Shown here: positions 10,048 through 23,235 of the stretch, piece by piece
Numbering within the stretch: the stretch's first letter is position 1
How the letters are laid out: each line of letters starts with the position of its first letter
IMG/VR virus record: IMGVR_UViG_3300029079_000001
Source: a virus
Taxonomy: Duplodnaviria > Heunggongvirae > Uroviricota > Caudoviricetes
DNA length: 48,034 nucleotides
Strand: one strand, 5' to 3'
Notes under the pieces: model-generated
Databases searched by the model: none
Told to the model about the DNA's origin: nothing
What the model saw: only the letters and a program-made list of their open reading frames with translations
Program-made: the position numbers and the translations under genes

Positions 10048-11949
10048 ATGAGCAAAGTAAAAATCGGTGAATTAATAAACTCACTTGTTAGCGATGTTGA
10101 GTCAATAGATAACTCTGACCGTCCTCAAGGGGAAAAAACAAAAAAAATAAAGGCTGTTGCATTAAAATTTAAAAATGCATTATTTAATGACAAGCGAAAG
10201 TTTAGGGGGAAAGGATTAGAAAAAAGAATTACAGCCAACACATTCAATGCCTATATGAGCAGGGCCAGAAAACGGTTTGATGATAAACTTCATCATAGCT
10301 TTGAAAAAAATATACATCGCCTATCTGAAAAGTATCCTTTATATAATGAGGAGCTATTGTCATGGCTTTCTCTACCTGCTGCCGATATTCGCCAGAGAAT
10401 GTCAGCTTTACAGGCAAAATTAAAATTAATTCTCCCTTTATCAGAAGATTTATCTAATATCAGAATTGGTGATAACAAAAGTCATAATAAGTTATTAAAA
10501 TTATCAAATAAATATAAAGAGTGGCAATTCGCCATATCTGATTTAACTAGCGATAACTGGAAAGATAAGCGCGATTATTTATATAAATTACTACAGCAAG
10601 GATCTGCCTTACTTGAGGAGTTGAATCAGCTAAAAGTTAACCATGAGATTCTCTATCATCTTCAACTAAGCCCTGCCGAACGCGCATCTATCCAGCAACG
10701 ATGGGCGGACGTTCTGCACAATAAGAAACGTAACGTGGTGGTCATTGATTACCCTAAATATATGCAAGCTATTTACGATATTATAAATAGCCCTGCTACA
10801 TTAAATAATCTAAACACTCGTTCAGGTATGGCTCCTTTGGCATTTGCACTTGCAGCATTGTCAGGAAGACGAATGATTGAGATTATGTATCAAGGTACAT
10901 TTACTGTTTCTGGTAAGTATACCGTTGATTTTTTAGGCCAAGCAAAAAAAAGAACTTCTGATGATATAACCAGAAAAATATATACATTATGCGAAGCAAA
11001 AACATTTGTTTATTTAATAAATGTACTTCGCTCATGCCCAGCAGCATCTGATTTTGATGATGTCGTTAAAGGTTATGGAGATAACGACACACGCTCTGAA
11101 AACGGACGGATTAATGCCATATTAGCAAAGGCTTTTAACCCGTGGGTTAAATCATTTTTCAAAGATGACCGCCGTGTTTATAAAGATAGTCGTGCTATTT
11201 ATGCCCGTATTGCGTATGAAATGTTTTTCCGCGTAGATCCTCGTTGGAAAAACGTAGATGAGGATGTTTTCTTTATGGAAATTTTAGGCCATGACGATGA
11301 AAACACTCAATTACACTATAAGCAATTCAAGCTGGCCAACTTCTCAAAGACATGGAGGCCAAATACTGGAAACGAAAATACCAGGCTGGAAGCATTGCAG
11401 CAGCTTGATGACGAAATGCCAGGATTCGCCAGAGGAGATGCCGGGGTTCGTCTGCATAACACAGTTAAGCAGCTGGTAGAGCAGGACCCCTCTATAAAAA
11501 TCACGAACAGCACTCTAAGAGCATTCAAATTTAGCCCTACAATGATTAGTCGATACCTGGAATTTGCTGCTGATGCTCTGGGGCAATTTGTTGGCGAAAA
11601 TGGACAATGGCAGCTGAAAATAGATTCTCCAGAAATCGTTATGCCTGACGAAGAAGAGCTGGAAGCAATACCTGAACAGACGGATGAATTATCAGAGGAT
11701 GACGATCTGGATGACGACGAAATTGAGATAGAGGAAGAGGAAGAGGAAGAGGAAGAGAGCGTAGAAGAACAGCAACCGCCCGCGCCTTCTTCACCTGTAT
11801 CTAAGCCGGTATTTAAGCCCGTGAGAAATATTGGTGATGGCTCATACGTTGTTGAGTTTCATTATAATGGCCAGAATTATGCTTGGTCCGGCATTGCAAA
11901 CAGCCCTATATCAGCAATGCAGTTAGCATGGCTGACATATTTCGGATAA
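10048..11949 (+). CDS. telN: Protelomerase TelN (telomere resolvase)
   Basis: 633 aa; N15 TelN-like sequence throughout with an acidic EEEEEEE C-terminal region; directly adjacent to the palindromic target. Confidence 0.9.
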   Translation: MSKVKIGELINSLVSDVESIDNSDRPQGEKTKKIKAVALKFKNALFNDKRKFRGKGLEKRITANTFNAYMSRARKRFDDKLHHSFEKNIHRLSEKYPLYNEELLSWLSLPAADIRQRMSALQAKLKLILPLSEDLSNIRIGDNKSHNKLLKLSNKYKEWQFAISDLTSDNWKDKRDYLYKLLQQGSALLEELNQLKVNHEILYHLQLSPAERASIQQRWADVLHNKKRNVVVIDYPKYMQAIYDIINSPATLNNLNTRSGMAPLAFALAALSGRRMIEIMYQGTFTVSGKYTVDFLGQAKKRTSDDITRKIYTLCEAKTFVYLINVLRSCPAASDFDDVVKGYGDNDTRSENGRINAILAKAFNPWVKSFFKDDRRVYKDSRAIYARIAYEMFFRVDPRWKNVDEDVFFMEILGHDDENTQLHYKQFKLANFSKTWRPNTGNENTRLEALQQLDDEMPGFARGDAGVRLHNTVKQLVEQDPSIKITNSTLRAFKFSPTMISRYLEFAADALGQFVGENGQWQLKIDSPEIVMPDEEELEAIPEQTDELSEDDDLDDDEIEIEEEEEEEEESVEEQQPPAPSSPVSKPVFKPVRNIGDGSYVVEFHYNGQNYAWSGIANSPISAMQLAWLTYFG

Positions 11950-11960
11950 AGCATACAGTA

Positions 11961-11984
11961 AAGGCACCGAATTATCGGTGCCTT
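11961..11984. terminator. Bidirectional hairpin between convergent telN and the antirepressor-like operon
   Basis: AAGGCACCGA-ATTA-TCGGTGCCTT 10-bp stem. Confidence 0.6.
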
Positions 11985-11994
11985 GTTGTGTGGT

Positions 11995-12159
11995 CTACCT
12001 CGCCTGCCCCTTTTCGTCCTCATCCAACTTTCTGATGGCCGTAGAATCAATACCCGCCGCCATACACACATCAGATGCAACAAACCACGGTTCGCCGTTA
12101 ATCATCACTACACGAACCTGATGCTCTTCCTGAAAGGAAAATACTGCTAACGCGCTCAT
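11995..12159 (-). CDS. Truncated Bro-N-domain antirepressor fragment (54 aa)
   Basis: MSALAVFSFQEEHQVRVVMINGEPWFVASDVCMAAGIDSTAIRKLDEDEK matches the Bro-N consensus; ATGA coupling to the upstream ORF; below the 60-aa cut-off of the ORF track. Confidence 0.6.
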   Translation of the reverse strand: MSALAVFSFQEEHQVRVVMINGEPWFVASDVCMAAGIDSTAIRKLDEDEKGQAR

Positions 12160-12389
12160 TCAGCCTCCTTATCGTGCAGCAATTGCGACGAGAGCGATGC
12201 TGAATAACCCTGTGCTTCGTGTGTGAGCTCACACGCAATTTGAAGGAGTTTCCCTGCTTCTGAGAGATAAATCGACGCCTCACAACTGGAGATTGTCCGA
12301 TGGGCTGATGATACGAGCGCATAGACCTGAGCCAGACGTTCATCCAACGATTCCAGCAGGCCAACAGTGTTCATTTTTACCTGATTCAT
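12156..12389 (-). CDS. Hypothetical protein (77 aa), middle gene of the coupled three-gene operon
   Basis: ORF with overlapping start/stop (ATGA) on both sides. Confidence 0.5.
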   Translation of the reverse strand: MNQVKMNTVGLLESLDERLAQVYALVSSAHRTISSCEASIYLSEAGKLLQIACELTHEAQGYSASLSSQLLHDKEAE

Positions 12390-12550
12390 GCAGCCACCTC
12401 GCGCACCGGAATACGGGCAGATAATACCAGGACAAACCGGCTGGCGAACTGGCGACGAGCTTCCCGTTCAGATGACGCGATGGTGGAAAGATGATGGATG
12501 TGTGACTTTTTGTCTGTGCGAACGATTGCCGCAAATTTGAATTTGAACAT
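12386..12550 (-). CDS. Hypothetical small protein (54 aa), first gene after the leader terminator
   Basis: MFKFKFAAIVRTDKK...; stop overlaps the next start; not in the ORF track (<60 aa). Confidence 0.4.
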   Translation of the reverse strand: MFKFKFAAIVRTDKKSHIHHLSTIASSEREARRQFASRFVLVLSARIPVREVAA

Positions 12551-12711
12551 GGTATGCACTCCGTTTAATTGGTCGTGCTACCACCAGAGTTCCTACGCTC
12601 TATATGGCGGTAGCCCAGACGGGGGTAGGAATACCGGTAAACGAAGAAACCGGCCAGCTAAAAGCTGCCCCATCTGAGCCACCATAAATTTGGTGTACGC
12701 AGATTTTACAC

Positions 12712-12736
12712 ACAAAAAAACACGCTGGCGCGTGTT
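12712..12736 (-). terminator. Intrinsic terminator inside the leader of the antirepressor-like operon
   Basis: On the minus strand AACACGC-GCCA-GCGTGTT followed by TTTTTTT. Confidence 0.7.
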
Positions 12737-12739
12737 GTG

Positions 12740-12900
12740 CGCTTCATTTACTCGGGTTCCTACGCCCGGCTACGGGATTTACCGTAGCAGAGTAAACTTT
12801 ACCGTCAAAACGACGCGCACGTCAATAATTTGCAAAGACATTTTACCCCGTGACCAGTCACGGGGACAGGTGTTTTTATAATTTGCTTGAACGAGTGATC
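12740..12900 (-). ncRNA. Candidate leader/small regulatory RNA region (N15 CA / P4 CI RNA-like control of the antirepressor operon)
   Basis: No ORF; 9-bp-stem hairpin CCCCGTGAC/GTCACGGGG at 12846..12865; lies upstream of the terminator; the 10-mer GTTCCTACGC occurs twice (12589, 12756) with a partially complementary GGTAGGAAT at 12624. Confidence 0.35.
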
Positions 12901-12926
12901 AGAAGTTGATCGTTAATCAAAGGCCA

Positions 12927-13238
12927 TTACTGATTAAGAGATTGGAAATACCTAACTAACTTACCGGCATCATCACATTTTTCTTTATCTTCGTCCTTAA
13001 CATAGCCGCGACAAAAGGCTGAATAAAATTTTGCATTTTCAGAAGCAAAAGCAGCCGTCGAAAGGAGCAGCTCTTTGCATGACTCTTTTGATGCAGCATC
13101 GGGATTATTTTTACATGCAAGCTCCGCTGATGAGTTAATAACAGAAATGCTATCTTCCTGGGCATAAACCGCAGCAGAAAAGGCAAAACATAAAACAAAA
13201 ATAAAACTCTTCACTTTATCTCCTGTAACAGTCATCAC
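12927..13238 (-). CDS. Secreted Cys-rich small protein (signal peptide, ~80-aa mature part)
   Basis: N-terminus KSFIFVLCFAFSAAVYA|QED is a Sec signal; four Cys in the mature part; AT-rich. Confidence 0.55.
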   Translation of the reverse strand: MMTVTGDKVKSFIFVLCFAFSAAVYAQEDSISVINSSAELACKNNPDAASKESCKELLLSTAAFASENAKFYSAFCRGYVKDEDKEKCDDAGKLVRYFQSLNQ

Positions 13239-13241
13239 AAT

Positions 13242-13649
13242 TCAATCAACTTTTTTAGCATCAGCCATACGATTCAACCAGGAATCAACAATCGGTTGCT
13301 CATCTACAGAATGTTTACCAGGTATAACTCGCCAGCTATCTTGCGAAAATCTGCCGTACTTACGCGGGAATAGGCCTTTCTTTATCTCCCGCCATGTAGT
13401 AGGAAAACCATCCACAAAAGTACCAATTAACAGGAGAGGGACAAAAATCAGAGCTACAAACCATCGTGCAAGAAAGTGTTCAACAACAACATTTTCACCG
13501 TTGTAGTAATACGCATACGCATCCAATATGCGAATTTTCCTTACCTTAAAAATAGCCTTATGCTGAGAACGACTTAACTTGATACGAATGTATCCCTTAT
13601 CCAAAGGGGATTCGTATTTGTATGATTGAACAGCCATTTTTAACCCCAC
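13242..13649 (-). CDS. Membrane-anchored hypothetical protein (135 aa)
   Basis: Central TM segment WFVALIFVPLLLIGTFV. Confidence 0.5.
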   Translation of the reverse strand: MGLKMAVQSYKYESPLDKGYIRIKLSRSQHKAIFKVRKIRILDAYAYYYNGENVVVEHFLARWFVALIFVPLLLIGTFVDGFPTTWREIKKGLFPRKYGRFSQDSWRVIPGKHSVDEQPIVDSWLNRMADAKKVD

Positions 13650-13970: not shown

Positions 13971-14162
13971 TTACTCCCCGTTCACCGAAAATTCACGATA
14001 GAAACGTTTCCACATACGATAAGTCTGCGCAAATTGTTCACCACGAAACATCGCCTTCCTGGCCTTCATGTTTTCCTTGTGAGACTTTCGGTCTATGAAC
14101 CAAAACCATTGATGGAACACACAAAGCAAGAGACACAAAGATAATATCCAATCATTACCCAT
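13971..14162 (-). CDS. Small membrane protein (63 aa), translationally coupled to the repA stop
   Basis: ATG at 14162 overlaps the repA stop; TM segment WILSLCLLLCVFHQWFWFI; the ORF track gives a longer 13971..14279 frame. Confidence 0.5.
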   Translation of the reverse strand: MGNDWILSLCLLLCVFHQWFWFIDRKSHKENMKARKAMFRGEQFAQTYRMWKRFYREFSVNGE

Positions 14163-17100
14163 AGAAAGCGCCCTGCTCTTCGTAGCTGCATGAGCTATTC
14201 CCCGTAATGTATTCACGTAACCGCCGCAGCTCATTGCTGGAAAGGTGATCCATGAACTCTGTGAGGTACAGGGATGCAAACGTCATAGCTATGCTGGCTG
14301 ATGACCATGATGACATAGTGGCCAACTCCTCACTGGAAAGCGCACTCATCGCCCAGGACTCAGGTACAGCCACTGGCAACACGGCCAAAGCCTCAGAAAT
14401 TACTGAATGAGGGGCGTTTTGAACCTGCTCGTTTGTGGATCGCGTTTTATCATCCATATATATATTGAGATCCAAATCGCGATCCATTTCGATGGCTGTC
14501 TTCTCGGCTTTACGCGTTTTTAGGGTTAGGCCATCTTTCTGACGCTGAACAAGAATATCCAGCATAAATGCCGCTGATTCAGGCTCAACAAAACGCAAGG
14601 TTGGACGCTTATCGCCGTCTCTGCCGCGACGTTTACCTGTTTTAAGGCCAAGAGAGTCGCAAATGTTTTTAAACAACGCTTCCGGCACTTTAGGCTTCCC
14701 TTTTGGCGTCATAAAACCACCAATGTGCAGAACGTTATTCAACAGGTCACGGCGTTCGGCTGTCATGAGGTTATCTCGAGCGAATTTGAGACGCTCCTGA
14801 GTCGCCTCGCCGGTCATAGTCTCAGGGTTGATACCGCAGTCGATAAAGTACTGCCGGAGAGTTGCTGATTTAAGCGCATAGAAACCGCGCGCCCCGACTT
14901 CAACAGTAGGAGTAGCTTTTACCTTGTGATCGATTATTCCAGGGAATTTAGTTTTAAAGACATCATCAGCCTGCTCGCGAGTCATCGCGGTCACTACAAA
15001 ATATTGCCACTGTCCCGCCTGACGGTATGCGTAGGTAAAATTGATGGCTGCTTCTTCCCGGTCGTAACGACGAGCTGTTACCTCATCTAAAAGCATTGTT
15101 TCATAGCGGCGAACTTTGTCTCGAGCACCATCGAAATAGAATTTCAGCGTGCCTTCTTCAACCGGTAGTTTCAGTTCGTTTTCAATATCCCAGCGGACAA
15201 GTTTTGCCTGTTCTTCAAGCGTCAGCGCGCGTTTTTTTAGCAGTTCTTCACGCTCTGATTCTTGTGGAGTTTCTGTATTGAGGTGCAGATCCAGTGTCTG
15301 TTCCCACACAATATCCCGCGCTTCTTTACGCAGATCTTTACCGATATCATTCGCAGCATAATCGGTGGCCAGCGGTGATACCTTATAACCGTCGCTGTGC
15401 ATGATGCAGATCATGTTGCTGGCGTAGTCGTTACGCGCAGTCGCTTCAATTGCGGCTGCTTTAATTTTCATCCTGGTAAAGTCGGTATTGGCCACCCCCA
15501 TTGATATACGGTCGCCATCGAAAACGACATCCGTCAGTTCACCGTTCATACCTGCGGTAGCAAGCAATGCCTGGGCGAATGCTCGTTCTATTTTTTGCGG
15601 GTCAGTTTCTCGTTTTGCACGAGCTTTATCAAAGCCGATAATAAATTCTTTTGCTGTACGGTCGCGGCGTAGCATTTGCACTGCGTCGCTGGGTACAACT
15701 TCACCACAGAACATGCCGAAATGACGGTCAAAATGTTTTTGCTCAATCGACACGCCGGATGAAATAGACGGGCTATAAATCAGGCCGTCGTATTTTTTGA
15801 CCATCTTTTTCGGTTGATTGGTAAATGCTTCAACTTCTGGCTCTGGTTTGTTTTTCTGGTTTACACACAGAAATTTCTTACCAGGAAAATGCATTCTCAG
15901 GGTGGCTGTCACATCTTCTGCAAAGGTGGAGCTGTCGGTGGCCAACATGATTTTTTCGCCATCCGATACAGCTTTCACCACCTCGGTCATGATGCGATCT
16001 TTTTCTGTATAAAAAACCCGGATTGGCTCACCTGTTTCGCGGTTGCGAACATCAACAGGTAATTCAATTACGTGGATCTGCAGCCATGCCGGTAAACCTA
16101 GTTCTTCACGGCGTTTCATAGCCAGTTCAGCCAGGTCAACCAGTAGATCGTTCGCATCAGCATCCACCATGATTGGGTGTTGTTCCGTTCTGGCCAGCGC
16201 GTCAATTAGCGTATTGAATACAGCAACCGGGTTTTCCATAGCCCGACCGGAAAGAACGGCACGTAGCCCTTGCGTGGCCTCGTCAAAGCCAAAATAGTCG
16301 TGCTGGCGCATCAACGGTTGCCAGCAGTTTTTAACAATCGAGTTTATGCAGATGGTCAGTTTACTGGCGTATGGAGCAATTTCCTGATAGCCAGGGTCCT
16401 GATAGTGCAGGATATCGGCTTTTACACCTTTTCCTTCTGTCATCATTTCCCACAGGCCACCAATAAGGGAGACACGGTGAGCAACAGAGATACCACGTTC
16501 TGAGCTATGCATTAACGGTCGTAACAATCCAGTAGATTTGCCGGAACCCATACCAGCACGGACGATGACTATCCCCTGTAGTGATTGCACGTACTTCAGG
16601 ACATCATCGGTCATTACCGAAGTTTCAAAACGCTTATAGGTGATATGTTGAGGGCGTTTATTGGGATCAGTTATGCGTTCGCTGAAAGAGCGCGGAGCCT
16701 GGGCAATACGGCACTTTTTATTCAGGCGACGGGCAATGTGGTCTTTTACCGTAGCACGATAGATATTTTCCAGTCCCATTTCACGCAGAACGATGCAGAA
16801 CATGTTAAATAAATCTGACGGACTGTTAGGAACCGGGCAGGTTAGCATGCCAATATCCACCGCTCTCAGCAGCTCTTTGGCAAAAGTACGACGGTTATCC
16901 CGCTTAATTGTCTTCAGGCGGTTGAGCGTCAGAGATAGCAAATCAGTACCGGTTTTCAGGCGGTTTGCTGTTGCAAATAGTTGACGTGCTGTTTCACGAA
17001 GTCCACGTAGTTTGTGCAGGTCGTTGAAGTCACTGCACTCCATTTGCGGATCGTCTTCAAAAGTTGGATAGACGCAGCGGACATCGTTGAATTTCGATAA

Positions 17101-18150
17101 GATTTCATAGCCAGTCCGCAGGCCGGTATTCCCTTTTCCTTCTGTGGCAGATTTCCGGTCATTATCCAGTGCGCAGGTGATTTTTGCCGCCGGGTACATG
17201 TTTACCAGTTGTTCCACAACATGAACCATGTTGTTAGCGGATACAGCGACAACCACAGCGTCAAAGCGTTTATCTTTTTTCGTGGCAAGCCAGATGGATG
17301 CACCAGTAGCAAAACCTTCTGTAACAGCGATGTTTTGCGCCCCTTTCAGCTCACCGATAACAAAGCAGGCACCGACGAAATCGCCGCTGGTTACTGCGCT
17401 GGTCTGGTATTTCCCACCTTGTTTGTCGATTCGCTGCCAACCCACAATACGACCATCATAACGACCGTCCAGGTGAGCCAGAGGGATAGCCATATATGTG
17501 GTTGGCCCCCGGCTCCATTTCGCACTGTCGTGACTGGTCACGCGACGCACATCACATGAACTAAAAACGTCACGAATACCTTTTTTAATCGCATATGGCC
17601 ATGAGCCGTCTTCAGCCTGAGCATGTTCCCACGCGCTGTGGAATGCCAGCCATCCCAGCAAACGTTCATGGTCCATTTGGTTGTTTTTCAGGTCATTAAT
17701 TCGTTTTTGTTCTTCACGGCGACGACGTGCTTCGGCCTGACGTTCTATTCTTTCCCGTTCTTCTTCCGGTTGTGCGACCACGGTCGCATTATTCCGTTGT
17801 TGCTCACGGCGATATTCAGAAAACAGGAAGGAGAAACCGCTCCATGAGCCAGCATCGCTGCCTTTATGGACGAAGTTAATGAACGGGTAATCAATCCCTT
17901 TGCTGTGTTCCAGCCTGGAGTAAATTTCTACGCGTCCTTTCAGGCTCTTTTCGAGAGCTTCTGGAGATGTTTTATTGTATGAAGAGTAACGCTCAACCCC
18001 CCCGCGAGGGTTGAGTTGGATGTTGTCGGAACAGGCAGACCAGTTGATACCAGCCATCTGTGCCAGCTCGGTTAGTTCATCCCGTGCTGCTTCAATTAGC
18101 GAGAACGGATCGCTGCCAAAGCGATCCGCATAGAAATCGTTTAATGTCAT
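14155..18150 (-). CDS. repA: Replication protein RepA (multidomain primase-helicase, N15 RepA-like)
   Basis: 1331 aa; Walker A GMGSGKST in the helicase part; position and size match N15 repA; sopC-like palindrome #1 lies inside it at 17771..17788. Confidence 0.85.
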   Translation of the reverse strand: MTLNDFYADRFGSDPFSLIEAARDELTELAQMAGINWSACSDNIQLNPRGGVERYSSYNKTSPEALEKSLKGRVEIYSRLEHSKGIDYPFINFVHKGSDAGSWSGFSFLFSEYRREQQRNNATVVAQPEEERERIERQAEARRRREEQKRINDLKNNQMDHERLLGWLAFHSAWEHAQAEDGSWPYAIKKGIRDVFSSCDVRRVTSHDSAKWSRGPTTYMAIPLAHLDGRYDGRIVGWQRIDKQGGKYQTSAVTSGDFVGACFVIGELKGAQNIAVTEGFATGASIWLATKKDKRFDAVVVAVSANNMVHVVEQLVNMYPAAKITCALDNDRKSATEGKGNTGLRTGYEILSKFNDVRCVYPTFEDDPQMECSDFNDLHKLRGLRETARQLFATANRLKTGTDLLSLTLNRLKTIKRDNRRTFAKELLRAVDIGMLTCPVPNSPSDLFNMFCIVLREMGLENIYRATVKDHIARRLNKKCRIAQAPRSFSERITDPNKRPQHITYKRFETSVMTDDVLKYVQSLQGIVIVRAGMGSGKSTGLLRPLMHSSERGISVAHRVSLIGGLWEMMTEGKGVKADILHYQDPGYQEIAPYASKLTICINSIVKNCWQPLMRQHDYFGFDEATQGLRAVLSGRAMENPVAVFNTLIDALARTEQHPIMVDADANDLLVDLAELAMKRREELGLPAWLQIHVIELPVDVRNRETGEPIRVFYTEKDRIMTEVVKAVSDGEKIMLATDSSTFAEDVTATLRMHFPGKKFLCVNQKNKPEPEVEAFTNQPKKMVKKYDGLIYSPSISSGVSIEQKHFDRHFGMFCGEVVPSDAVQMLRRDRTAKEFIIGFDKARAKRETDPQKIERAFAQALLATAGMNGELTDVVFDGDRISMGVANTDFTRMKIKAAAIEATARNDYASNMICIMHSDGYKVSPLATDYAANDIGKDLRKEARDIVWEQTLDLHLNTETPQESEREELLKKRALTLEEQAKLVRWDIENELKLPVEEGTLKFYFDGARDKVRRYETMLLDEVTARRYDREEAAINFTYAYRQAGQWQYFVVTAMTREQADDVFKTKFPGIIDHKVKATPTVEVGARGFYALKSATLRQYFIDCGINPETMTGEATQERLKFARDNLMTAERRDLLNNVLHIGGFMTPKGKPKVPEALFKNICDSLGLKTGKRRGRDGDKRPTLRFVEPESAAFMLDILVQRQKDGLTLKTRKAEKTAIEMDRDLDLNIYMDDKTRSTNEQVQNAPHSVISEALAVLPVAVPESWAMSALSSEELATMSSWSSASIAMTFASLYLTEFMDHLSSNELRRLREYITGNSSCSYEEQGAFYG
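17771..17788. repeat. sopC-like centromere palindrome #1 (inside repA)
   Basis: TGTGCGACCACGGTCGCA. Confidence 0.6.
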
Positions 18151-18395: not shown

Positions 18396-18992
18396 TCATC
18401 TACCCTCAACCATGAATGATTTGATCGTTCCGACTATTTGGTGAACAAATTCAAGATCGCTTTTCCTGAAGATGGCGCGTTGTGAGTTTGTTCCATCCAG
18501 ATAGTAATTTTCATCATCAAAACGGGCCAGGCGCTGGATAGTGATATTTCCTGCAGTATCACGAACCAGAACATCCTCGCCGGGGACCAGTTCCAGCGCA
18601 GAATCGACCAGGAGAAAATCGCCTGGCTGATAGTTTCCCTGCGTAAGATTGCTGATAGTTAACGCATACACAGTATTGCGCTGGCTGATGAATGGCAGGA
18701 ATCGCTCAGTATTTGGAACCTGTCCCGGCTTCCACTCTTCATCCGGCCCACTTTCAGTTGTGCCAATAACAGGAATGCGATCAGGGTCATATTCTGTCCC
18801 ATATAGCACCCAATGCACTGGCTTGCGTAAGCACTTAGCCAGGGCAATACCTATCTCCAGTGACGGCATTACGTCGCCACGTTCTAAGTTTTGGACGCCT
18901 GCTATAGAGATATCGACAGCCTCAGCAACTTCTCGCAACGTCAGCTTCATCTCTAAACGGCGTGCTTTCAGTCGTTCGCCTCGTGTTTTCAT
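18396..18992 (-). CDS. cB: Prophage repressor CB (CI-like: N-terminal HTH plus C-terminal S24 LexA-like domain)
   Basis: 198 aa; HTH LTLREVAEAVDISIAGVQNLERG; divergent from cro across an operator-containing intergenic region. Confidence 0.8.
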   Translation of the reverse strand: MKTRGERLKARRLEMKLTLREVAEAVDISIAGVQNLERGDVMPSLEIGIALAKCLRKPVHWVLYGTEYDPDRIPVIGTTESGPDEEWKPGQVPNTERFLPFISQRNTVYALTISNLTQGNYQPGDFLLVDSALELVPGEDVLVRDTAGNITIQRLARFDDENYYLDGTNSQRAIFRKSDLEFVHQIVGTIKSFMVEGR

Positions 18993-19014: not shown

Positions 19015-19056
19015 TTATAGCTGGCTATAAAATTTATTTATTATAGCTAGCTTTAA
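19015..19056. promoter_or_regulatory. Immunity operator sites between cB and cro
   Basis: 16-bp palindromes TTATAGCTGGCTATAA (19015..19030) and TTATAGCTAGCTTTAA (19041..19056). Confidence 0.7.
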
Positions 19057-19083
19057 TTGTTGTTTATTGTTTATAATAACAAC

Positions 19084-19305
19084 ATGAAACCAGAAGAACT
19101 TATTCGCCACTTTGGCAGTGTAGAAAAAGCAGCGGCAGGGGTAGGTGTAACACCCGGAGCTGTTTACCAATGGTTAACCGCTGGAGAGATTCCTTCATTG
19201 CGGCAAAGCGATATTGAAGTTCGTACTGCTTATAAGCTGAAGAGTGACTTTACAACTCGGCGGGTAAAGCAGTCGATTAAGGAGAGTCGTAAGCGTGGAG
19301 CTTGA
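19084..19305 (+). CDS. cro: Cro-like HTH regulator
   Basis: 73 aa from ATG 19084 (the ORF track uses upstream TTG 19057); HTH AAGVGVTPGAVYQWL; divergent from cB. Confidence 0.7.
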   Translation: MKPEELIRHFGSVEKAAAGVGVTPGAVYQWLTAGEIPSLRQSDIEVRTAYKLKSDFTTRRVKQSIKESRKRGA

Positions 19306-22777: not shown

Positions 22778-23104
22778 ATGGCGCTGACACCGGCAGAACG
22801 GCAAAGGAGACGCAGGGAACGGTTGAAGAAGGAAGGCACATCAAGACGGGACTGGATTCTGGAGCCTGACGAGTTACGTATGTTGGGAGAAATTTGTGTA
22901 TTGCGTAGACCGGGGCGAGTTCCATATTCAGAGAATGAAGTCATTGGTCTGCTGATCAGGAAAAACTATAAGGAACTGCAGAAGCAGCTATCTACTACTT
23001 GCCCACGATGTGGTCAAAAAATGCCTGTTTCAGAATGCATTTTTGATGGTGAAGACTCATGTCACCTTACAACTACGAGGCTGAAACTTGCGCTCAAAGT
23101 GTGA
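22778..23104 (+). CDS. Hypothetical basic protein with C-terminal CxxC motif
   Basis: Arg-rich N-terminus RQRRRRERLKK; CPRCG motif. Confidence 0.4.
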   Translation: MALTPAERQRRRRERLKKEGTSRRDWILEPDELRMLGEICVLRRPGRVPYSENEVIGLLIRKNYKELQKQLSTTCPRCGQKMPVSECIFDGEDSCHLTTTRLKLALKV

Positions 23105-23235
23105 CTGGTCACGGAATGATAAACGAAGCGAAAAGAGCTTTTCTTATGGTGATGATGGGCTTTTGTAGGTGGTTGAGTGAGGCGTAGGAAGAGAACATAA
23201 ATATCTGACTACAAAGCTATTAACCCAGTTAATCC

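What the first reader, a model, noticed from the sequence alone, without database searches (positions are those of the whole stretch)
11995..12900. Antirepressor-like operon with leader hairpin and intrinsic terminator; terminal Bro-N gene is truncated
On the minus strand a ~190-nt ORF-free leader with a strong hairpin is followed by an intrinsic terminator (12712..12736) and then three translationally coupled small genes (54, 77 and 54 aa), the last being only the N-terminal half of a Bro-N antirepressor domain. This layout parallels the RNA-controlled anti-immunity loci of N15 (CA RNA) and P4 (CI RNA). A 10-mer GTTCCTACGC occurs on both sides of the terminator (12589, 12756), with a partially complementary GGTAGGAAT at 12624. 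Two of the three genes fall below the 60-aa ORF-track cut-off, so the operon is easy to miss.
Basis: partly seen in the sequence, partly recalled or inferred. Interest (0 to 1): 0.6.

Follow-up and report, generated by a model that had tools for sequence, protein, structure and literature searches.

The report
N15-type RNA-controlled anti-immunity operon
This is the anti-immunity (immA) operon of an N15-like linear-plasmid phage, a well-known kind of switch in which a small antisense RNA holds an antirepressor gene off; the only unusual point is that its last, accessory gene has been cut short by a deletion.

Summary
The window is an N15-like telomere phage (telN 10048..11949, repA 14155..18150), and the finding is the ortholog of N15 immA (genes 32-31-30).

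On the minus strand the layout is:
- a sigma-70-like promoter (12825..12796);
- an IsrK/seqA-like sRNA with the intrinsic terminator (12788..12715; Rfam 62.5 bits, gathering 50);
- icd (54 aa), antA (77 aa) and a truncated antB (54 aa).

Across 27 distinct relatives all seven b':b2 pairs are always kept, five of them through compensatory changes that define five specificity classes.

The Bro-N gene lost about 735 bp by a microhomology deletion. This allele is in 13 of 17 related E. coli plasmid records. By N15 genetics the antirepressor is AntA, not the Bro-N protein.

The "leader hairpin" lies upstream of the promoter. It is a conserved DNA palindrome of unknown function, not a leader RNA structure.

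This is a known system and of low novelty.

The parts
12845..12864 (.). It lies upstream of the promoter and its function is unknown.
   Evidence: Fold dG -14.2, z -3.2. The core CGTGACTGGTCACG plus GGGTAAAAT is invariant in 6 phages and nearly so in 44 of 46 IMG/VR loci, while the outer 5' arm varies without compensation. Exact 12-mer copies also lie at 17530 and 23101, and at the three homologous places in N15. It is not a SopB IR and not a CB operator.
12796..12825 (-). Predicted sigma-70 promoter (Pa-like): -35 TTGACG, 18-nt spacer, -10 TAAAGT. The predicted start is about 12789/12788.
   Evidence: It is the only minus-strand promoter-like site in 11900..13300. The -35 is invariant and the -10 is TA[A/G]AGT in all relatives. 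Position 1 of the isrK model aligns at 12788. The start site itself is inferred.
12715..12788 (-). IsrK/seqA-like sRNA element: hairpin 1, hairpin 2 carrying b1 (12765..12756), a1 (12751..12742), then the intrinsic terminator (stem 12736..12719 plus T7).
   Evidence: Rfam RF01394 62.5 bits, gathering 50, E 4e-12. RF03163 c4-a1b1 scores 33 bits, below gathering. Terminator. Helices are 99-100% paired in 27 relatives, and 4 pairs of hairpin 1 show compensatory changes.
12603..12689 (-). C4/CI/CA-type antisense RNA. The antisense elements are a' (12646..12637, loop of hairpin 2) and b' (12631..12625, single-stranded joint).
   Evidence: Rfam RF01695 73.6 bits, gathering 45, E 1e-13. MFE -44.4 kcal/mol, z -5.6. 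The 16-bp outer helix is 100% paired in 27 relatives. N15 has the same RNA at the homologous place.
   Evidence: Exact repeat. The 7 core b':b2 pairs are paired in 27 of 27 distinct relatives, 5 of them with changes on both sides. Covariation score 0.59 against 0.12 in shuffles (0 of 500 reach it), and at most 0.20 in slid controls.
12559..12567 (-). a2 target site (UAAACGGAG), covering the Shine-Dalgarno GGAG (12562..12559) of icd.
   Evidence: It is complementary to a' CUUCGUUUA with one G-U pair. a1, a' and a2 change together in relatives, giving about 5 classes.
12386..12550 (-). icd-like gene (54 aa), first gene of the operon.
   Evidence: NCBIfam NF033153 phage_ICD_like 66.8 bits, cut-off 25. 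50 of 54 residues identical to the N15 homolog. dN/dS 0.04-0.08 against N15, KpLi5 and PhiR46_1, and 0.33 against YDC107_1 from one synonymous and one non-synonymous difference.
12156..12389 (-). antA homolog (77 aa), the antirepressor by homology with N15 gp31. Its start overlaps the icd stop (ATGA).
   Evidence: 63% identical to N15 gp31. PHROG 6301 (E 2e-36) and PHROG 10889 'anti-repressor'. dN/dS 0.08-0.17. AntA is the N15 antirepressor (PMC2847241, PMC10612081).
11995..12159 (-). antB' remnant (54 aa): the first 50 codons of a Bro-N gene plus 4 new codons (GQAR) and a stop. The deletion junction is at GGGG 12010..12007.
   Evidence: Pfam Bro-N positions 1-41 of 96. About 735 bp are missing relative to YDC107_1 (L003 2726..3460), with an AGGG(G) microhomology at the junction. 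The same allele is in PhiR46_1, in 13 of 17 E. coli plasmid records and in 8 IMG/VR contigs.
11961..11984 (.). Hairpin between the convergent antB' and telN genes (AAGGCACCGA-UAAU-UCGGUGCCUU), probably a bidirectional terminator.
   Evidence: dG -18.9 kcal/mol (z -5.6) on the minus strand and -25.0 (z -7.2) on the plus strand. Retained next to the deletion and present in YDC107_1. Its function is inferred.

Best explanation
The locus is the immA (anti-immunity) operon of an N15-like telomere phage, controlled by an IsrK/C4-type pair of RNA elements.

**Inferred mechanism**
1. A constitutive promoter (12825..12796) starts transcription at about 12789.
2. Most transcripts stop at the intrinsic terminator. 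This gives a roughly 75-nt IsrK/seqA-like RNA that carries the sites b1 and a1.
3. Read-through transcripts carry the C4/CA-type RNA (12689..12603), which is cut out of the leader.
4. The exposed elements a' and b' of this RNA pair with b2 and a2 just upstream of icd. That covers the icd ribosome-binding site.
5. Translation of icd is blocked, and through polarity or premature termination so is expression of the translationally coupled antA.
6. The upstream b1-a1 copy is a second binding site for the same RNA. It acts either in cis in the nascent leader, to favour termination as in P4 and N15, or as a decoy or activator on the short RNA, as in Gifsy-1 IsrK.
7. When the RNA is titrated or mismatched, Icd and the antirepressor AntA are made, and AntA inactivates the CB prophage repressor.

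antB, an accessory Bro-N gene, has been destroyed by a 735-bp deletion without disabling the rest of the operon.

**Shown here:** homology, RNA family membership, structure, three-site complementarity with covariation, purifying selection on icd and antA, and the deletion.

**Inferred only:** the start site, RNA processing, repression, and the target of AntA.
For: **Context and orthology**
- Synteny between telN and repA, with 77% DNA identity to N15 genes 33-31 and 94% to phage PhiR46_1.
- The GenBank feature 'cA secondary immunity repressor' of N15 lies under the match.
- The isrK and C4 covariance models score above gathering here, and in the same order in N15, PhiR46_1, YDC107_1, KpLi5 and 48ST307.

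**RNA structure and pairing**
- The C4-like RNA folds at z -5.6, and its helices are kept in relatives.
- b1, b' and b2 switch together among five classes, and a1, a' and a2 among about five.
- The b':b2 test gives 7 of 7 core pairs always paired, with 5 compensatory pairs and 0 of 500 shuffles reaching the score.
- Cognate C4-to-upstream-target duplexes are the most stable in every row of a cross matrix, at -28.6 to -35.3 kcal/mol.
- a2 covers the SD GGAG, 8 nt before the icd ATG.

**Proteins**
- Icd matches its NCBIfam model, and AntA matches a PHROG family annotated as anti-repressor.
- dN/dS is 0.04-0.33 for icd and 0.08-0.17 for antA.

**Literature**
- immA is icd-antA-antB, with AntA the antirepressor (PMC4488713, PMC10612081, PMC2847241).
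- IsrK/C4 correspond to seqA/CI of P4, and similar systems exist in P1, P7 and N15 (PMC3632133, PMC4825925).
Against: - No expression data exist for this phage. The start site, RNA processing and repression all rest on homologs.
- I could not re-read the N15 primary paper (Ravin et al. 1999, not held). The choice between translational block and termination as the primary effect rests on my memory of that paper and of the P1 and P4 literature.
- The a'-a2 pairing is short, at 9 bp including one G-U.
- The c4-a1b1 model scores below its gathering threshold here (33 against 46.7).
- The truncated antB shows that at least part of the operon has decayed.
Confidence: 0.85

Rival explanations
1. One reading: the regulatory RNA is made from the 12740..12900 leader, the strong hairpin at 12864..12845 is part of it, and control is attenuation at the 12736..12712 terminator. 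The stretch between terminator and first gene is a passive spacer.
For: The hairpin and the terminator both exist. The region has no minus-strand ORF.
Against: - The only promoter-like site (12825..12796) lies downstream of the hairpin, and the isrK model starts at 12788.
- The 'spacer' holds a C4-family RNA at 73.6 bits with conserved structure.
- The outer stem of the hairpin is broken without compensation in N15, KpLi5 and others, while the 3' arm stays invariant.
Confidence: 0.04
2. The locus is a decaying, non-functional remnant. The antB truncation marks an anti-immunity operon that no longer works in this prophage lineage.
For: - antB is cut to 41 of 96 Bro-N positions.
- Independent antB lesions exist in relatives: L016 has a nonsense codon, L029 a frameshift and L033 only 129 aa.
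Against: - icd and antA are under strong purifying selection.
- The RNA structure and the three-site complementarity are fully intact, and they co-vary in lineages that carry the deletion.
- The same deletion allele is linked to three different RNA specificity classes and occurs in 13 of 17 E. coli plasmids of 46-75 kb. It has therefore persisted through diversification.
- AntB has no established role in N15 (PMC4488713).
Confidence: 0.08
3. Gifsy-1-type positive control dominates. The short IsrK-like RNA acts in trans on read-through transcripts, opens an inactive fold and switches icd-antA translation on. The C4-like part then serves mainly as the cis partner of that fold rather than as a trans repressor.
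For: - The MFE fold of the read-through RNA (12789..12535, -105.3 kcal/mol, z -6.3) pairs b1-a1 with a'-b' in cis, like IsrK 'structure A' (PMC4825925).
- The isrK model scores above gathering.
Against: - In N15 and P1 the C4-type RNA is the genetically defined immunity repressor (the cA and c4 loci, PMC3632133, and my own knowledge).
- The downstream b2/a2 copy, which covers the icd SD and co-varies perfectly with b', is what a trans-acting repressor needs. A purely cis-acting partner of the fold would not need it.
- The two modes do not exclude each other.
Confidence: 0.3

Closest known systems
Phage N15 immA anti-immunity operon (CA RNA, icd, antA, antB; genes 32-30)
   Same: - Same genomic slot (between telN and repA) and same strand.
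- Same order of parts: palindrome, promoter, IsrK-like RNA with terminator, C4-like RNA, icd, antA, antB.
- Icd is 50/54 identical and AntA 63% identical.
   Different: - antB is reduced to 54 aa by a 735-bp deletion.
- The RNA specificity differs. b is GUAGGAA/UUCCUAC here and UCUCAA/UUGAGA in N15. a' is CUUCGUUUAC here and CUUCUUGUAC in N15. The two phages are therefore predicted to be heteroimmune at immA.
- The upstream neighbour gene differs.
Phage P1/P7 immI (c4 antisense RNA, icd, ant1/2)
   Same: - C4-family RNA.
- a'/b' elements with duplicated targets a1/b1 and a2/b2, the second set lying at the icd ribosome-binding site.
- An icd-like first gene followed by an antirepressor.
- Specificity classes set by a few bases, as in P1/P7 heteroimmunity (established knowledge: Citron & Schuster 1990, cited in PMC3632133 and PMC12197685).
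   Different: - Here the a1/b1 region is a full IsrK-like element with its own intrinsic terminator.
- The antirepressor is the small AntA, unrelated to P1 Ant.
- The c4-a1b1 model scores below gathering.
Satellite phage P4 immunity (seqA, CI RNA, seqC)
   Same: seqA corresponds to the IsrK-like element and CI to the C4-like RNA. The processed antisense RNA has complementary sites on both sides (PMC4825925, PMC3632133).
   Different: P4 uses the system as its primary immunity, to terminate transcription of its replication genes. Here it guards an icd-antirepressor operon and is secondary to a CI-like protein repressor (cB at 18396..18992).
Salmonella Gifsy-1 isrK-orf45-anrP locus
   Same: An IsrK sRNA with a read-through terminator, then a C4-like stable RNA (STnc1160), a small upstream ORF and a translationally coupled antirepressor (PMC4825925).
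   Different: - In Gifsy-1 the small ORF (orf45) overlaps the C4-like region. Here that region has no conserved frame, because relatives differ by 1-nt indels.
- The first gene here is icd, downstream of the RNA.
- The Gifsy-1 antirepressor AnrP is a different protein.

Membership tests
C4 antisense RNA family (Rfam RF01695; P1/P7 c4, P4 CI, N15 CA) | Sequence and structure match to the covariance model at or above the gathering score | tested here: met
   73.6 bits against gathering 45, E 1.4e-13, full-length match 1-87 at 12689..12603.
C4 antisense RNA family (Rfam RF01695; P1/P7 c4, P4 CI, N15 CA) | Long closing helix with two internal hairpins, kept in relatives | tested here: met
   MFE -44.4 kcal/mol, z -5.6. 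The 16-bp outer helix is 100% paired and hairpin 2 is 98.8% paired in 27 distinct relatives. Hairpin 1 is misaligned by an indel.
C4 antisense RNA family (Rfam RF01695; P1/P7 c4, P4 CI, N15 CA) | Two antisense elements (a', b') complementary to target pairs upstream (a1, b1) and downstream (a2, b2), with the downstream pair at the ribosome-binding site of the first gene | tested here: met
   Coordinates are read from the sequence. Three-way co-variation. Formal b':b2 test. Cognate duplexes are the most stable. a2 covers GGAG 12562..12559.
C4 antisense RNA family (Rfam RF01695; P1/P7 c4, P4 CI, N15 CA) | Mature RNA produced by processing of the leader transcript, and repressing the operon in trans | not testable with these tools
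   Needs Northern blots or RNA-seq, and reporter genetics.
IsrK / seqA-like element (Rfam RF01394) | Match to the covariance model at or above the gathering score, ending in an intrinsic terminator | tested here: met
   62.5 bits against gathering 50, at 12788..12715. Terminator stem 12736..12719 plus T7. Terminator helix 98.9% paired in relatives.
IsrK / seqA-like element (Rfam RF01394) | Own promoter directly upstream, and a C4-like RNA directly downstream reached by read-through | tested here: inconclusive
   A promoter-like site at 12825..12796 is conserved in relatives and fits model position 1. The count of such sites in the scanned region equals chance expectation (2 against 2.0). Read-through has not been measured.
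N15 immA operon (icd-antA-antB) | Location between telN and repA, transcribed towards telN | tested here: met
   telN 10048..11949 (+) and repA 14155..18150 (-).
N15 immA operon (icd-antA-antB) | icd-like first gene | tested here: met
   NF033153 66.8 bits, cut-off 25. 50 of 54 residues identical to N15.
N15 immA operon (icd-antA-antB) | antA antirepressor gene, translationally coupled to icd | tested here: met
   63% identity to N15 gp31, an ATGA overlap, and dN/dS 0.08-0.17. Antirepressor activity itself was not tested.
N15 immA operon (icd-antA-antB) | Full-length antB (Bro-N domain plus C-terminal region, about 260 aa) | tested here: not met
   54 aa, Bro-N positions 1-41 of 96. A 735-bp deletion relative to YDC107_1.
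N15 immA operon (icd-antA-antB) | Additional control of a promoter by the CB repressor (my recollection of Ravin et al. 1999, which I could not re-read) | tested here: inconclusive
   No TTATAGC-NN-GCTATAA operator with up to 3 mismatches lies anywhere near 12500..13000. Whether N15 has one there could not be checked against the paper.

The most novel reading that the evidence does not exclude
Two details are not, to my knowledge, described.

1. **The palindrome.** CGTGAC-TG-GTCACG sits about 66 nt upstream of the immA start. It recurs inside repA and at the stop codon of the gene-46 homolog, at homologous places in both this phage and N15. It could be the operator of an unidentified regulator that ties the anti-immunity promoter to replication and to a second regulatory region.
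2. **The RNA specificities.** Among N15-like phages the a and b specificities form a shuffled code of about 5 x 5 classes. The same antB deletion allele travels with three different b classes. This suggests that AntB loss is tolerated or favoured in E. coli plasmid prophages, while RNA specificity is exchanged by recombination.
Probability: 0.2. Interest if true: 0.4.

Novelty: new member of a known kind. Interest (0 to 1): 0.2.

Why it matters
The main value is better annotation.
- The window carries a textbook IsrK/C4-type anti-immunity switch.
- Public records of its relatives label the parts only as hypothetical, 'Icd-like' or 'BRO-N' proteins, and some place CDSs on top of the RNA gene.
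- The comparative data give clean natural evidence for the three-site pairing model of C4-type RNAs, with five b classes that all co-vary perfectly.
- They also predict which N15-like phages are heteroimmune at immA.
- The common antB deletion allele indicates that the Bro-N protein is dispensable for maintaining these plasmid prophages in E. coli.

None of this changes the established picture of the system.

Tried and rejected
- **Palindrome as a SopB centromere: rejected.** N15 IR sites are GTGCGACCNNGGTCGCAC (PMC7205306). The window has six of them elsewhere and none at immA.
- **Palindrome as a CB operator: rejected.** The operators between cB and cro are TTATAGC-NN-GCTATAA, and none lies near immA.
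- **Palindrome as an intrinsic terminator of the upstream genes: unlikely.** There is no U-tract on either strand, and the outer stem is not kept in relatives.
- **Coding ORFs across the C4 region (37 or 40 aa, GTG or TTG starts; annotated as 'Icd-like' or 'ash' in some records): rejected.** Relatives differ by 1-nt indels, and the stems co-vary.
- **Scan of genome contigs with AntA.** It found no relative. The IMG/VR scan with an AntA alignment gave 46 loci.
- **Primary N15 papers.** Ravin et al. 1999 and Mardanov & Ravin 2007 are not held. Mechanistic details of CA RNA therefore rest on secondary sources and on my memory.
- **Formal test of b1:b' on alignment A3: not run.** MAFFT placed gaps inconsistently in the b1 columns. 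The b1 evidence is the class table and the duplex matrix.
Full report
**1. Observation.**
- On the minus strand there are three ORFs: 12550..12386 (54 aa from the ATG; the ORF listing reports 57 aa from an upstream GTG), 12389..12156 (77 aa) and 12159..11995 (54 aa). Both junctions are ATGA overlaps.
- An intrinsic-terminator-like site has its stem at 12736..12719, followed by seven T.
- The hairpin CCCCGTGA-CTGG-TCACGGGG lies at 12864..12845 (dG -14.2 kcal/mol, z -3.2).
- GTTCCTACGC occurs exactly twice in the 48 kb, at 12589 and 12756. Its partial complement GGTAGGAAT is at 12624..12632.
- The last ORF matches only positions 1-41 of the 96-position Pfam Bro-N model.

**2. Context.** The window is an N15-like telomere phage.
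- A 633-aa protelomerase gene (10048..11949, +) converges on the locus. A 1331-aa repA (14155..18150, -) lies upstream on the same strand.
- The region is 94% identical to Escherichia phage PhiR46_1 and 89-96% identical to YDC107_1. From 12915 to 12214 it is 76-77% identical to N15, where it covers the end of gene 33, an annotated terminator, gene 32 and gene 31.
- In the older N15 record the feature under the match is 'cA: secondary immunity repressor'.
- The finding is therefore the ortholog of N15 immA. The literature describes immA as an operon of icd, antA (the antirepressor) and antB (function not elucidated) (PMC4488713, PMC10612081, PMC2847241).

**3. RNA anatomy.**
- Rfam finds two families above their gathering scores: isrK (RF01394) at 12788..12715 (62.5 bits, gathering 50) and C4 antisense RNA (RF01695) at 12689..12603 (73.6 bits, gathering 45). 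The a1/b1-target model RF03163 overlaps the isrK hit below threshold (33 against 46.7).
- N15, PhiR46_1, YDC107_1 and two Klebsiella telomere phages have the same two elements in the same order. The terminator annotated in N15 is the isrK terminator.
- The only minus-strand promoter-like site in 11900..13300 is TTGACG-18-TAAAGT at 12825..12796. It is conserved in all relatives and places the start at about 12789, one base before model position 1. The promoter is a consensus match only.
- The C4-like RNA folds into the family structure (-44.4 kcal/mol, z -5.6). Across 27 distinct relatives its helices and those of the IsrK-like element are 99-100% paired, apart from one hairpin misaligned by an indel, and several pairs show compensatory changes.
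The antisense RNA actually lies downstream of the terminator.

**4. The 10-mers are the antisense targets.**
- On the RNA strand the 10-mer is GCGUAGGAAC: b1 at 12765..12756, in the loop of IsrK hairpin 2, and b2 at 12598..12589, just after the C4-like RNA.
- UUCCUAC (12631..12625), in the single-stranded joint of the C4-like RNA, is its complement b'.
- A second set is a' CUUCGUUUAC (12646..12637, loop of C4 hairpin 2), a1 GUAAAUGAAG (12751..12742) and a2 UAAACGGAG (12567..12559). a2 covers the GGAG Shine-Dalgarno sequence 8 nt before the icd ATG.
- Among six phages, and then 46 sequences (45 IMG/VR loci and the window), b1, b' and b2 change together through five classes: GUAGGAA, UUCGCAA, UCUCAA, GUGAGAA and UUGGAAC. 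a1, a' and a2 change together through about five classes, in shuffled combinations.
- On alignment A3 the seven core b':b2 pairs are standard pairs in all 27 distinct sequences, five of them with changes on both sides. The covariation score is 0.59 against 0.12 in shuffles (0 of 500 reach it) and at most 0.20 in slid controls.
- In a cross matrix, each phage's C4 segment binds its own upstream target best (-28.6 to -35.3 kcal/mol).
- The window shares its b class with the Klebsiella phages and its a class with PhiR46_1, so the module is mosaic.

**5. Genes.**
- The first ORF is an Icd-like cell-division inhibitor (NF033153, 66.8 bits, cut-off 25). It is 50/54 identical to the N15 homolog.
- The second is the AntA homolog: 63% identical to N15 gp31, with a PHROG 'anti-repressor' match.
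- Both are under purifying selection. dN/dS is 0.04-0.17 in seven of the eight comparisons. The icd comparison with YDC107_1 gives 0.33, from one synonymous and one non-synonymous difference.

**6. The truncation.**
- Relative to YDC107_1 the window lacks 735 bp (L003 2726..3460). The junction is at a GGGG/AGGG microhomology (12010..12007) and adds GQAR-stop.
- The deletion removes the rest of antB and most of a 60-aa ORF. It leaves the hairpin 11984..11961 shared with telN.
- The same allele is in PhiR46_1 and in 13 of the 17 E. coli complete-genome records that hold the region; the other four have the long form. It is also in 8 IMG/VR contigs, where it is linked to three different b classes.
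- Other relatives carry independent antB lesions.
- antB therefore looks dispensable, which agrees with its undefined role in N15. The antirepressor gene itself is intact.

**7. The 'leader hairpin'.**
- It lies about 66 nt upstream of the predicted start, so it is not in the leader.
- Its core CGTGAC-(T/G)G-GTCAC(G/A)G and the following GGGTAAAAT are almost invariant. The outer 5' arm varies without compensation, for example GCAC in N15 against an invariant GGGG. This pattern fits a DNA site rather than an RNA stem.
- Exact copies of the 12-mer lie inside repA (17530) and on the stop codon of the gene-46 homolog (23101), and at the three homologous places in N15.
- It is not the N15 SopB centromere repeat, six of which are elsewhere in the window (PMC7205306). 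It is not a CB operator either, and it has no U-tract.
- Its function is unexplained.

**8. Mechanism.** Steps 1-3 are supported by sequence evidence; steps 4-6 are inferred from homologs.
1. The promoter fires constitutively.
2. Most transcripts end at the terminator as an IsrK-like RNA of about 75 nt.
3. Read-through transcripts contain the C4-like RNA.
4. That RNA is processed out of the leader, as in P1, P4 and N15. This comes from my own knowledge and is summarised in PMC4825925 and PMC3632133.
5. Its a' and b' elements pair with b2 and a2 and occlude the icd ribosome-binding site. This also prevents expression of the coupled antA, through polarity or premature termination.
6. b1 and a1 bind the same RNA, either in the nascent leader or on the short RNA. 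This gives a titration switch.

The MFE fold of the read-through RNA pairs b1-a1 with a'-b' in cis (z -6.3). That resembles the inactive 'structure A' of the Gifsy-1 isrK locus (PMC4825925), so a positive, IsrK-type contribution cannot be excluded.

**9. Comparison and verdict.**
- The locus meets every sequence-testable defining feature of the C4 family. For the IsrK family it meets the model and terminator test, while the promoter and read-through feature is inconclusive.
- It meets the tested immA features of location, icd and antA, but not a full-length antB. Control by the CB repressor is inconclusive. Processing and repression cannot be tested here.
- It is a new member of a known kind, with a common accessory-gene deletion and a particular RNA specificity class.
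- Interest is low. The only open points are the conserved palindrome and the combinatorial specificity classes.

Noticed in passing
window 17772, 20215, 24802, 27901, 28121, 29806: Six N15-type SopB centromere inverted repeats, GTGCGACCNNGGTCGCAC (four exact, two with one mismatch), are dispersed over the right arm. N15 is described as having four (IR1-4; PMC7205306). Chance expectation is 0.19.
   Followed up: partly
window 12850..12861, 17530..17541, 23101..23112; N15 (L006) 28550, 33237, 39269: The 12-bp palindrome GTGAC-NN-GTCAC occurs three times at homologous places in both phages: upstream of the immA promoter, inside repA, and on the stop codon of the gene-46 homolog. The binding factor is unknown.
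   Followed up: partly
window 19015..19056: Two CB-type operators (TTATAGCTGGCTATAA and TTATAGCTAGCTTTAA) lie between the divergent cB (18396..18992, -) and cro (19057..19305, +) genes. This is the immB switch.
   Followed up: no
window 12927..13238 (-): A 94/103-aa ORF with a signal-peptide-like N-terminus (PHROG 26765, unknown function; called 'Spackle' in the PhiR46_1 record) occupies the slot where N15 has gene 33. Klebsiella telomere phages carry telocin toxin-immunity cassettes in the repA-telN interval (PMC12042878).
   Followed up: no
L050, L051, L052 (IMG/VR), directly after the antA homolog: A 393-400-aa ORF follows antA in place of antB. Its N-terminus (MLYAVRVRLYPNAAQREFF...) looks like a TnpB/OrfB-type protein to me; I did not run a family search on it.
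   Followed up: no
window 12603..12715 and the homologous stretches of L001 (N15 gene 32, 5' part), L004 1695..1829 and E. coli records H15-H26: Public records annotate protein-coding genes ('Icd-like', 'ash family protein', the N-terminal 42 aa of N15 gp32) on top of the C4-like RNA. The 1-nt indels and stem covariation among relatives indicate that the stretch is non-coding.
   Followed up: partly
E. coli complete genomes, query window 12577..12687: The C4-like RNA and b2 segment alone matches about 450 further E. coli records, mostly chromosomes, at 82-87% identity, next to Icd-like genes. This RNA module is therefore far more widespread than N15-like phages.
   Followed up: no
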